Below are positions 11,869 through 15,233 of a stretch of 64,000 nt of DNA, piece by piece. The notes beneath the pieces were generated by a model. It saw only the letters and a program-made list of their open reading frames with translations. It ran no database searches and was not told the origin of the DNA. The position numbers and the translations under genes were made by a program. Within the stretch, counting starts at the first letter, position 1. Each line of letters starts with the position of its first letter. This stretch comes from Candidatus Bathyarchaeota archaeon (GTDB lineage Archaea; Thermoproteota; Bathyarchaeia; TCS64), in contig JBFYNP010000067.1 of assembly GCA_041304325.1 (NCBI GenBank), positions 3,070 to 67,069 on the forward strand, given 5' to 3'.

Positions 11869-13914
11869 TTATGAAGCGCGACGATAGTAGCCTGGCCTTG
11901 GTGAGTAAATTGTTCCATCTCTCATCAGAGTGCTGATCAGCTTTGCAGCGTCGCTTCTATTTACACCATGGTCTTTAGCAAGTGCCTCATATAGATCATC
12001 ATCTTTAACAGGCCCTGTTTTCTCCATATCGGCAATTGCTCCAAGCACTTTTTGGAGTTGTGTCTGCATACTTCTGGGCTTGCCAGTGTAAAGGATGTCA
12101 ATATCGAGTTGACCTGTCGTAATATCTATGCCTACTTGCTCTAGACTGCTTTGAGTGAGAGTTATTACTGCTTCAGCGTCCTCCTTAGTGACCTCAGTTC
12201 TAAGATGACATCTTGCTCTTGCTTCTGCGAGTCGAACTAAACTCTCCAGTTGTCTTGCAGTTATGGCGACAGCGGAGGCTTCCCCACCCTCGGTTGAGGC
12301 GGAACGCATTTTCACATAAAAGTCTCGGAACCTTTCGATTACTTCATCAGACATTACTGGTTTGACGCGTTTTGCATAGCTTATGTATTTACGTAAAAGT
12401 TGTGGTTCTATAGCACTGACTATTGCCTGTCCAGCAGTACGATGGAGACCTAATATGTGTTCAGCCATTTCTGCATCTCTTGATTGATCTGGAACATCTT
12501 TTAAAACGAAAATTAGATCAAATCGGCTGAGTATTGTAACTGGTAGGTTAATATTTTGTGCTATAGTTTGATATGGATTATATCGGCCTAATGTCGGGTT
12601 ACCTGCGGCTAATATGCTTGCCCTAGCATTGAGGGTGGCAACAATACCACCTTTAGCTATGGAAACGATCTGCTGTTCCATTGCAGGGTGTATTGCTCCT
12701 CTGTCTTCTTCACGCATTTTATCAATTTCGTCTATGCAACAGACTCCTTTATCCGCTAAAACGAGGGCTCCTGCTTCGAGAATAAAGTTGCCTGTGCCAC
12801 CTTCCTTTACAACAGCAGCGGTCAATCCTGCCGCTGTACTTCCTCTACCTGTAGTTAGTAAACCTCGAGGTGCGATCTTTGCCGCAAAGCCGAGGAGTTG
12901 GCTTTTACCTGTTCCCGGATCGCCTACGAGTAGAACGTTTATGTCTCCCCTGATTCTGAGGTCTGGAAGGTTTTTTCCGACACCTCCGAAGAGTAGATAC
13001 ATTACAGACTCTTTGATGGAATCTTGACCATAAATGCTGGGTGCAATACTCTGGAGGAGACGTCGATGAACCCATGGGTCAGAAGCGATCTCCAAAATTT
13101 TGCGTTCATCTTCCTCATCTAGCTCCATTAACTCCAGCTCTCTTCCTGAAACATCGATATTATTCGCTTCCATCACCATGTCGTAGATTCTGAGTGGACC
13201 TCCCCGACCGTACCTCTGAAGCAGATCTATGCTACCTATGATTGTAATACGGTCACCAGGTCGGGCTACATCAACAAGATCGTCGCGAAGATCTATGTGA
13301 AGACTTCGGGGTAGTTGTCCAGGGGGAAGGTCCTCGGGTCTCTCCTGAATTGTTACTCGTTGTGAGTCCATGAAGACGCTAAGTTTGGGAACGAGATCGA
13401 AGCTTTTCTTATTGTCGCAGTGCTCACATTTCTGTGGTGTTTTAAGTATCTCACCGCTCTGCTCAACATAGTTTAATTCACTACATGCGCTACATCTGAA
13501 GACTGCTTTAACCACTAGAGGTGTCACAACACTTGCTCGTACAATTATGCCGTTGACCATAACGAGCTTTCCAATATAATCAGACCCGATTTTGCGGAGT
13601 GGAGTGTCTGTGGGAAGATTCCTGAACCTTACATTAATATTTTTTTGCGTCTCAGCGTAAAGTGGATCTTTAAGTCTAAGCTTTGAAGAAACAGCTTTTC
13701 TGAATATGTTAAACATTTTATCTGGTTCACGAAGTGTCTCGTTGGCAAGCTCTAAATCGTAGTTATAGAGGTTGCTGAAATCTATTACAAGGGATTTTAG
13801 CCCTTTGACTCCAAGTTCGGCGATTGCTTGATCGTACTTGATTCCTTCTTGCTCATCTCGGAAGTCTTCTATGAAGCGTGAAAACACTTCCTCTGCAGTT
13901 GTTTGTGTTGCCAC
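11869..13914 (-). CDS. mcm: Replicative MCM helicase
   Basis: 681 aa. Has a Zn finger (CSAC...CEHC), Walker A GDPGTGKSQ, Walker B CCIDEIDKM and the arginine finger SRFDLIF. GTG start directly abuts the GINS stop. Confidence 0.97.
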   Translation of the reverse strand: MATQTTAEEVFSRFIEDFRDEQEGIKYDQAIAELGVKGLKSLVIDFSNLYNYDLELANETLREPDKMFNIFRKAVSSKLRLKDPLYAETQKNINVRFRNLPTDTPLRKIGSDYIGKLVMVNGIIVRASVVTPLVVKAVFRCSACSELNYVEQSGEILKTPQKCEHCDNKKSFDLVPKLSVFMDSQRVTIQERPEDLPPGQLPRSLHIDLRDDLVDVARPGDRITIIGSIDLLQRYGRGGPLRIYDMVMEANNIDVSGRELELMELDEEDERKILEIASDPWVHRRLLQSIAPSIYGQDSIKESVMYLLFGGVGKNLPDLRIRGDINVLLVGDPGTGKSQLLGFAAKIAPRGLLTTGRGSTAAGLTAAVVKEGGTGNFILEAGALVLADKGVCCIDEIDKMREEDRGAIHPAMEQQIVSIAKGGIVATLNARASILAAGNPTLGRYNPYQTIAQNINLPVTILSRFDLIFVLKDVPDQSRDAEMAEHILGLHRTAGQAIVSAIEPQLLRKYISYAKRVKPVMSDEVIERFRDFYVKMRSASTEGGEASAVAITARQLESLVRLAEARARCHLRTEVTKEDAEAVITLTQSSLEQVGIDITTGQLDIDILYTGKPRSMQTQLQKVLGAIADMEKTGPVKDDDLYEALAKDHGVNRSDAAKLISTLMRDGTIYSPRPGYYRRAS

Positions 13915-14469
13915 CTATTTTGCCCCCATCTTCCTCATATTTATGCGCCAGGAGGAGATTATGTTTTGAAGTTCTTCGTATAAGCGTAACTCCTCAGGTT
14001 GGAATACCCCGGGTTGAGGTGGAGACTCAGCAGAAGCTAGTCTAGTAATTTTCCCTAAACGGCTTTCCAATACATCTCTGAACCTCGCTCGTAATCTGTT
14101 AAGTTGTTCAGTTTTAGTGGAGTCTTTTTCTGATTCCTTCGCAGTTTGGAGGAGACTAATATAAGCACGTGCGTAGAAATCCTATGGAAGTGGAACCGGG
14201 GGACCACCGGGATTGAACCTCTCTTTGAAGTGTATTTGAGTCCATTCGTCAGCTGTAACTCCATCGTCTTCAATGTGTGCGTATCCAGTCTCCACTAATA
14301 GTTTCGCGATCCAAAAAGGTGCTGAGAACTCGCGTCTTTCTTCAATACTTTCGATAGTATATCCGGGGGTTTCGGTTCGTGAGATCTTCCTTGTTGAAAC
14401 AAGTTTGATAGGAGTGTTCTCGTACTCTAAGCTAGTGGAATCAGAGGGCACTACGGATGGCACCTGCAT
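13915..14469 (-). CDS. GINS subunit interrupted by one in-frame TAG (14182-14184); either read through or recoded, or a pseudogene
   Basis: A single reading frame of 95 codons, then TAG, then 88 codons. The sequence ...PPVPLP[TAG]DFYARAY... spans the typical GINS LPxDFY junction. The C-terminal part (RLGKITRLA...EELRLYEEL...SW) is GINS A-domain-like. Total length is 184 codons, and the gene sits in an operon position upstream of mcm. Confidence 0.6.
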
Positions 14470-14609
14470 TAATTCCTGTCAAGGATTCTTTAATGCTACG
14501 CTCTCCATGAGATGAGAGTATCTTAAAAGTGGCATCCCTTAAATCAGAGTCTTACCACAAACCCTGTATGCTAGGTTACGTCGATGACCCCGGCATAGAT
14601 GGTCTCGTT

Positions 14610-15233
14610 CATATGGTTAGGGAAGCTCAGTCTATGCCAAATGTAAGAAAAGCCGTGAATGCACGGATGCTTGAATTCATTGAGGTGAGTCGATCCGGAT
14701 CAGATAGGTGGTTTGAAGAACTTACTTATTGTCTTCTAACGGCTTACTCAAGCGCTAGGATGGGGTACAAGTGTGTTGCTGCGCTTAGAGAGAATAATGC
14801 TCTACTTGAAAACGGAGTTGATGAGATCTACAGCTGTCTCCAAGAGCAAGGTCATAGGTTCGCCGAAAAAAGAGCCGAGTACATCTTTTCTGCACGAGAA
14901 CACGTATCCCATATAAAAGAGCTGCTTCAATCTCAGAAGAACAGCAGGCAAGCTCGTGAGTGGCTGGTTACGAATATTATGGGATTAGGTATGAAGGAGG
15001 CAAGCCACTATCTTCGAAATGTAGGTTACTTTGATCTCGCTATTATAGATAGACACATACTATCAAACATGATTGAGCTGAAGATAATACCTGAAGCGCC
15101 AAAAAGCCTTACAAAGAAACGGTATCTGGAATATGAGGTGATCCTTGATTCAGCGGCGAGGAAGCTTGGGATGCCTCTCGGTGAGATGGATCTTTATCTC
15201 TGGCAAAGGAAGACTGGTGAAGTTCTCAAGTAG
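14610..15233 (+). CDS. ogg: N-glycosylase/DNA lyase, archaeal Ogg2-type 8-oxoguanine glycosylase (HhH-GPD)
   Basis: HhH motif GLGMKEASHYLRNVGY followed by the catalytic DRHI. The ATG at 14610 gives 207 aa; the ORF is open from a GTG at 14529. Confidence 0.75.
   Translation, partial: HMVREAQSMPNVRKAVNARMLEFIEVSRSGSDRWFEELTYCLLTAYSSARMGYKCVAALRENNALLENGVDEIYSCLQEQGHRFAEKRAEYIFSAREHVSHIKELLQSQKNSRQAREWLVTNIMGLGMKEASHYLRNVGYFDLAIIDRHILSNMIELKIIPEAPKSLTKKRYLEYEVILDSAARKLGMPLGEMDLYLWQRKTGEVLK

What the first reader, a model, noticed from the sequence alone, without database searches (positions are those of the whole stretch)
13915..14469. GINS gene upstream of MCM carries a single in-frame TAG with conserved sequence on both sides
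Translating the minus strand through the TAG at 14182-14184 keeps one frame: 95 codons, TAG, then 88 codons. It reads ...FNPGGPPVPLP-[TAG]-DFYARAYISLLQ...RLGKITRLA...EELRLYEELQNIISSW. The TAG sits exactly in the LPxDFY junction typical of GINS proteins. The total of 184 codons is the normal GINS length. The downstream part has no usable start codon of its own. The gene ends 0 nt before the GTG start of mcm. GINS is an essential CMG helicase component. The options are programmed or leaky amber read-through, site-specific recoding, a very recent nonsense mutation compensated by a second GINS gene elsewhere, or a sequencing or assembly error.
Basis: seen in the sequence. Interest (0 to 1): 0.6.

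Follow-up and report, generated by a model that had tools for sequence, protein, structure and literature searches.

The report
Private stop codon in archaeal Gins23
The in-frame TAG in this archaeal replication gene (gins23) is a one-letter difference found only in this single metagenome assembly, because every other public copy of the same species reads lysine there, so it is an assembly error or private mutation and not a recoding signal.

Summary
On the minus strand of 13915-14469, a 184-codon Gins23 gene carries TAG at codon 96 (14182-14184), and its stop abuts the GTG start of mcm. The recoding reading is not supported.

The genome is a Bathyarchaeia MAG (2.14 Mb, 136 contigs, 88.8% complete). 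It has no PylS or PylD and no CUA-anticodon tRNA. TAG ends about 25% of its long ORFs, and TAG is not enriched among interrupted coding frames. No PylS was found in 40 relatives either.

All full-length Gins23 orthologues in those relatives are uninterrupted, and the aligned residue is mostly Lys. Four conspecific assemblies (96-98% protein identity) encode intact 184-aa proteins with Lys96. Two of them, read as DNA, have AAG.

Every Logan contig that covers position 14184 reads Lys: eight run ids from at least six studies, with two ids probably one data set. One of these contigs comes from the same study as the best holders and differs from the window only at that base. The 95-aa truncated product occurs on this one contig only.

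The TAG is therefore a private AAG-to-TAG change. It is most likely a consensus error or minority variant from low-depth metagenome assembly, and less likely a real fresh nonsense allele. The assembly's own raw reads were not available. Interest is low.

The parts
13915..14469 (-). gins23 gene: 184 sense positions plus the terminal TAG, interrupted in this assembly by TAG at codon 96
   Evidence: Orthologues in 40 relatives and four conspecific 184-aa proteins.
14182..14184 (-). In-frame TAG (codon 96). The T of TAG is the + strand A at 14184. All other copies read AAG, and two read AAA, which is also Lys.
   Evidence: Logan contigs; DNA alignment; protein alignment.
14185..14469 (-). N-terminal 95 codons, the small B domain of a BA-type GINS subunit. 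This is the only product if the TAG terminates translation.
   Evidence: The exact 95-aa product is on record for one contig only.
13918..14181 (-). C-terminal 88 codons, the helical A domain (Pfam Sld5 match at residues 85-178). It has no start codon of its own before codon 134.
   Evidence: Differences from conspecific strains here are 8 synonymous to 1 non-synonymous.
11869..13914 (-). mcm (681 aa). Its GTG start directly abuts the gins23 stop.
   Evidence: The same abutment is seen in conspecific contigs.

Best explanation
This is an ordinary gins23-mcm operon of a soil and wetland Bathyarchaeia species. In the species, codon 96 of gins23 is lysine (AAG), and the gene encodes a normal 184-aa BA-type GINS subunit that binds MCM. 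The TAG in this window is a single A-to-T difference that exists only in this one MAG contig. It is most likely a consensus error or a minority variant fixed by low-depth, multi-strain metagenome (co-)assembly. In that case the cells make full-length Gins23 by standard decoding and nothing is recoded. Shown: the TAG is private to this assembly, the recoding machinery is absent, and TAG is used normally as a stop. Inferred: the difference arose in sequencing or assembly and not in the DNA of the dominant strain.
For: (1) Orthologue search: every full-length orthologue found in the 40 relatives is free of internal stops. The single '1 TAG' flag (G038) is the terminal stop of an intact 180-aa ORF.
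(2) The aligned column is K in most genus members, otherwise E, A, N or D. AAG to TAG is one substitution.
(3) The 95-aa truncated product is on record for one contig only. Its 90% cluster holds four 184-aa proteins from Logan, JGI/IMG, NCBI and ENA. They are 96-98% identical to the window protein and all have K96.
(4) DNA of two of these (97.2% and 96.4% identical to the window over 3.6 and 1.6 kb) reads AAG.
(5) All 11 Logan contigs that cover 14184 read T on the + strand, giving AAG, or AAA in two of them. They come from runs X3, X7, X8, X12, X14, X15, X19 and X20; X14 and X15 are probably one data set. The X3 contig (14151-14302) differs from the window only at 14184, and X3 is from the same study as the best holders.
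(6) In X1, the best holder, a 151-nt contig aligns up to 14183 and leaves its last 3 letters unaligned. This is what a mismatch at 14184 would produce (inference).
(7) A 61-nt query in which every 31-mer spans the TAG found no run (only 3 sampled words, so this is weak).
(8) Local depth in the holders is about 2-5x.
Against: The raw reads of the sample or samples this MAG was assembled from could not be examined, because all runs were available only as Logan contigs. De Bruijn assemblers discard k-mers seen once, so the T was probably present in at least two reads. That favours a real molecule (a minority allele or PCR duplicate) over a pure base-calling error. No contig of the window's exact haplotype other than the X3 one covers the site.
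Confidence: 0.62

Rival explanations
1. This is a real, very recent nonsense allele. The sampled strain truly carries TAG at codon 96, so gins23 is a fresh pseudogene, or it depends on background near-cognate read-through. The allele would be private to that population.
For: The assembler kept the TAG path, which usually needs at least two reads. Contigs of other assemblies break close to the site: the X1 contig stops at 14183, and the 99.5%-identical JBFYNN contig stops at 14105. This fits a variant bubble. No decay is expected yet in a fresh allele, so the clean downstream half does not argue against it.
Against: No other assembly or contig carries the TAG. No second Gins23-type gene exists to compensate. 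Truncation at residue 95 removes the whole helical A domain (Pfam Sld5 match at residues 85-178). From my own knowledge, that domain forms the core of the GINS tetramer. In archaea that have both subunits, Gins23 mediates the contact with MCM (PMC7776575). A null allele should therefore be strongly counter-selected and is unlikely to dominate a population.
Confidence: 0.33
2. This is programmed recoding of the amber codon, either pyrrolysine insertion or a dedicated suppressor or read-through signal, so that full-length Gins23 is made from the TAG-containing mRNA.
For: The TAG replaces a Lys codon, and some other Bathyarchaeota do encode PylRS (PMC9630628). The frame stays open on both sides.
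Against: No PylS match at E<=1 and no PylD match above the cut-off in this genome. No PylS above the cut-off in 40 relatives: best 46 bits against a cut-off of 178. No CUA, UUA or UCA tRNA, with or without introns allowed. TAG ends 460 of 1827 long ORFs. TAG is not enriched among in-frame interrupted coding segments: 21 TAG, 38 TAA, 12 TGA overall, and 2, 6 and 5 when no start lies nearby. The stop is absent from all orthologues and conspecifics. There is no stable structure downstream (z = 0.23).
Confidence: 0.03
3. The gene is split. The TAG separates the B domain and the A domain into two independently translated polypeptides that reassemble.
For: The TAG lies close to the B/A domain junction. 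The Pfam A-domain match starts at residue 85 and the TAG is at residue 96.
Against: There is no ATG, GTG or TTG after the TAG until codon 134, and no overlap-type restart context. No relative has a split arrangement.
Confidence: 0.01

Closest known systems
Archaeal Gins23 (BA-type GINS subunit, the Psf2/Psf3 homologue) encoded next to mcm, as in Saccharolobus solfataricus
   Same: It matches NCBIfam Gins23 and Pfam Sld5. The helical A domain is C-terminal. The length is 184 aa. The gene lies directly upstream of mcm, as described for S. solfataricus, where gins23 shares an operon with mcm and Gins23 mediates the GINS-MCM contact (PMC7776575).
   Different: The HMM score (65.7 bits) is below NCBI's equivalog cut-off of 120, so this is a divergent Bathyarchaeia version. 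This one assembly carries a private TAG at codon 96.
Pyrrolysine (amber) decoding in Pyl-encoding archaea, including a few Bathyarchaeota
   Same: There is an in-frame TAG at a position where relatives have lysine.
   Different: PylS, PylD and tRNA-CUA are all absent. TAG is a frequent stop in this genome. The TAG is not conserved even within the species.
Single-base consensus errors and strain-variant chimeras in low-coverage metagenome-assembled genomes
   Same: The change is a singleton substitution in one MAG contig. Depth is low (about 2-5x in the holders). Several co-occurring strains differ at many nearby third-codon positions. Contigs in other assemblies break next to the site.
   Different: This was not proven, because the assembly's own reads were not available.

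Membership tests
Gins23 (NCBIfam NF053565; Pfam PF05916 Sld5/GINS helical bundle) | Significant match to the family profile over most of its length | tested here: inconclusive
   NF053565: E 4.1e-18, 65.7 bits, profile positions 26-156 of 159, but below the curated cut-off of 120. PF05916: 20.9 bits against a cut-off of 22.3, or 22.3 bits when neighbouring matches in the frame are added. Homology is clear, but equivalog status by NCBI's threshold is not reached.
Gins23 (NCBIfam NF053565; Pfam PF05916 Sld5/GINS helical bundle) | BA domain order: small B domain N-terminal, helical A domain C-terminal | tested here: met
   The Pfam helical-bundle match covers residues 85-178, the C-terminal half. 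The BA order for Gins23 is described in PMC7776575.
Gins23 (NCBIfam NF053565; Pfam PF05916 Sld5/GINS helical bundle) | Genomic linkage to mcm | tested here: met
   The stop abuts the mcm GTG. The same arrangement is seen in conspecific contigs.
Gins23 (NCBIfam NF053565; Pfam PF05916 Sld5/GINS helical bundle) | Forms a 2:2 tetramer with Gins51 and stimulates MCM | not testable with these tools
   This needs biochemistry. No Gins51 was detected with PF05916 in this 88.8%-complete MAG.
Pyrrolysine amber recoding | PylRS (pylS) present | tested here: not met
   TIGR02367: no match at E<=1 in the genome, and none over the cut-off in 40 relatives. The positive control (Methanosarcina) scored over the cut-off.
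Pyrrolysine amber recoding | Pyl biosynthesis genes (pylBCD) | tested here: not met
   TIGR03911 (PylD): best match 27.3 bits against a cut-off of 150. pylB and pylC were not searched separately.
Pyrrolysine amber recoding | tRNA with a CUA anticodon (pylT) | tested here: not met
   ARAGORN found none on the whole genome, with and without introns allowed. The genome is incomplete, with 34 tRNAs found.
Pyrrolysine amber recoding | TAG rare as a stop, and in-frame TAGs enriched in coding regions | tested here: not met
   TAG ends 25% of long ORFs. There is no TAG excess among interrupted coding frames.
Programmed stop-codon read-through | The stop codon is conserved at the same place in orthologues | tested here: not met
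   No full-length orthologue in the 40 relatives and none of 4 conspecific proteins has it.
Programmed stop-codon read-through | A stimulatory RNA structure or context downstream | tested here: not met
   The 116 nt from the TAG onward fold no better than shuffled sequence (z = 0.23).
Pseudogene (fresh nonsense allele) | The stop is present in the organism's DNA, supported by independent reads | not testable with these tools
   Only Logan contigs were served. None carries TAG, and the source reads were not available.

The most novel reading that the evidence does not exclude
The TAG is real and dominant in the sampled strain. This archaeon has no Pyl system, no suppressor tRNA and no second Gins23. 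It would survive on low-level near-cognate read-through of an amber codon in a core replisome gene, or it would show that Gins23 is dispensable in Bathyarchaeia.
Probability: 0.03. Interest if true: 0.45.

Novelty: not a real feature. Interest (0 to 1): 0.06.

Why it matters
It matters little biologically. The locus is a standard archaeal gins23-mcm operon. The practical value is for annotation: this MAG's gins23 should not be read as a pseudogene, a split gene or a recoding case. The case also shows that a singleton in-frame stop in a low-coverage MAG can be settled quickly by comparing conspecific assemblies and public-run contigs.

Tried and rejected
- Pyl recoding is rejected. PylS and PylD are absent in this genome and PylS is absent in 40 relatives, although some other Bathyarchaeota have PylRS (PMC9630628).
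- A suppressor tRNA is rejected. ARAGORN found none, with or without introns allowed.
- Genome-wide TAG reassignment is rejected by stop usage and by a codon-usage screen of interrupted frames. The gins23 site itself fell just under that screen's threshold: its downstream window scored 0.073 against a threshold of 0.094. The screen is therefore not very sensitive for short, fast-evolving genes.
- A PYLIS-like or read-through structure is rejected.
- A second Gins23 paralogue was not found.
- The apparent TAG in the distant relative G038 is only the terminal stop of an intact ORF.
- The apparent 840-aa Gins23-MCM fusion frame in G018 is an open frame running through a stretch of N.
- I tried to find runs holding the TAG-specific 31-mers. 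None were listed, but only 3 sampled words were available.
- I tried to read the site in the 99.5%-identical JBFYNN contig. That contig ends 79 nt short of the TAG.

Full report
**Observation**

- On the minus strand, an ORF starts at ATG 14469 and runs 95 codons to TAG at 14182-14184. It continues in the same frame for 88 codons to TAG at 13915-13917.
- The next base, 13914, begins the GTG start of a 681-aa MCM. The MCM domains are clear: MCM P-loop E 1.9e-94 plus the OB, lid and N domains.
- The read-through product matches NCBIfam Gins23 over residues 48-177 (E 4e-18).
- It also matches the Pfam GINS helical bundle over residues 85-178. That match starts before the TAG and runs far beyond it. 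The two halves are therefore one gene, not two chance ORFs.
- The first in-frame ATG, GTG or TTG after the TAG is at codon 134.

**Organism**

The window is C67:3070-67069 of a 2.14-Mb, 136-contig genome with 44% G+C, 88.8% completeness and 5.2% contamination. The closest mcm loci in the species-representative collection all come from Bathyarchaeia/Bathyarchaeota MAGs from peat, wetland, soil and sediment. Earlier notes of this scan also call the genome Bathyarchaeia.

**Is TAG recoded in this genome?**

Every test points against recoding.
- PylS (TIGR02367) has no match at E<=1. PylD (TIGR03911) reaches only 27 bits against a cut-off of 150. The Methanosarcina control scored over the cut-off in both searches.
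- Some Bathyarchaeota do carry PylRS (PMC9630628). I therefore searched 40 relatives from genus to class. None has PylS above the cut-off; the best score was 46 bits against 178.
- ARAGORN finds no tRNA with a CUA, UUA or UCA anticodon, with or without introns allowed.
- TAG terminates 460 of 1827 long stop-to-stop ORFs, TAA 915 and TGA 452.
- In a codon-usage screen for in-frame stops flanked by coding-like sequence, the counts were 21 TAG, 38 TAA and 12 TGA. Where no start codon lay nearby, they were 2, 6 and 5. These follow ordinary stop usage.
- The 116 nt from the TAG onward fold no better than shuffled sequence (z = 0.23).

**Is the TAG conserved?**

It is not.
- Every full-length Gins23 orthologue in the 40 relatives has an uninterrupted frame.
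- Two flags in that table turned out to be trivial. The '1 TAG' in G038 is the terminal stop of an intact 180-aa ORF. The 840-aa frame in G018 runs through a stretch of N.
- In the alignment of 19 orthologues, the column under the TAG is Lys in most genus members, and otherwise Glu, Ala, Asn or Asp. It sits inside a conserved L-P-x-[DEG]-F-Y context.

**Is the TAG present in the species?**

It was not found in any other copy.
- An exact look-up shows the 95-aa truncated product on one contig only, the window's own 111-kb contig. The other four members of its 90% cluster are 184 aa long. They come from Logan, JGI/IMG, NCBI and ENA.
- These four proteins are 96-98% identical to the window protein, and all have Lys at position 96.
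- Two of them were fetched as DNA. They are 97.2% and 96.4% identical to the window over 3.6 and 1.6 kb, and both read AAG.
- Of the 15 differences between the window and the JBFYNO copy, 11 are synonymous. Downstream of the TAG the split is 8 synonymous to 1 non-synonymous. Both halves are therefore under purifying selection in the species.

**Public sequencing runs**

- Twenty runs from soil, wetland and freshwater-sediment metagenomes hold near-identical sequence.
- I laid Logan contigs from all twenty on the region. Every contig that covers + strand position 14184 reads T instead of the window's A, giving AAG; two contigs read AAA.
- These contigs come from X3 (1), X7 (2), X8 (1), X12 (2), X14 (1), X15 (1), X19 (1) and X20 (1). 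X14 and X15 are probably one data set.
- The X3 contig is the most telling. It covers 14151-14302 and shares the window's alleles at all neighbouring polymorphic sites. It differs only at 14184, and it comes from the same study as the best holders X1, X2 and X4.
- In X1, a 151-nt contig aligns up to 14183 with its last three letters unaligned. A mismatch at 14184 would produce this (my inference).
- A 61-nt query in which every 31-mer spans the TAG found no run. This is weak evidence, because only 3 sampled words were used.
- Depth in all holders is low, about 2-5x.

**Interpretation**

The gene is an ordinary BA-type Gins23 placed directly upstream of mcm. This is the arrangement and partnership known from Saccharolobus, where Gins23 mediates the contact with MCM (PMC7776575). 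The TAG is a single A-to-T change from AAG that is private to this one assembly.

I rank a consensus error or minority variant from low-depth, multi-strain assembly first, at about 0.6. A real, fresh nonsense allele in the sampled strain comes second, at about 0.3. Two points weigh against the second reading:
- Truncation at residue 95 removes the whole A domain.
- No second Gins23-type gene exists in the genome.

Programmed recoding or read-through is at about 0.03, and a split gene at about 0.01.

**What remains open**

The assembly's own raw reads were not available, because all runs were served only as Logan contigs. The choice between an error and a real private allele is therefore inferred, not shown. 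Mapping the original reads would decide it.

Noticed in passing
L044, L080, L093: Three public MAGs labelled as bacteria (two Candidatus Krumholzibacteriaceae, one Candidatus Acidoferrum) carry contigs with a Bathyarchaeia-type mcm that is 53-69% identical to the window's. These are probably mis-binned archaeal contigs in those records.
   Followed up: no
whole genome G000: A Pfam Sld5/GINS search of the whole genome found only the Gins23 gene. No Gins51-type subunit was detected. It may lie in the missing ~11% of the MAG or be too divergent for the model.
   Followed up: no
window 14382 (codon 30 of gins23): The window has Ser30 (TCA) where all four conspecific proteins have Pro. Unlike the TAG, this allele is confirmed in independent contigs of runs X2 and X6, so it is a real strain polymorphism.
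   Followed up: partly
window 13914-13917; L112 1592-1597: The gins23 stop TAG is followed directly by the GTG start of mcm, in the same frame with 0 nt between. The abutment is conserved in conspecific contigs, which suggests tightly coupled translation of the two replisome genes.
   Followed up: partly
window 14529-15233 (+): An Ogg-HhH-type DNA glycosylase gene is transcribed divergently from gins23-mcm across a roughly 60-nt spacer. The same neighbour is present in conspecific contigs.
   Followed up: no
L114 (G018:C52) about 1350-1450: A run of N, either masked or a scaffold gap, joins the gins23 and mcm frames in this relative. In the search table it mimics an 840-aa fusion protein, but it is not a real fusion.
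   Followed up: yes
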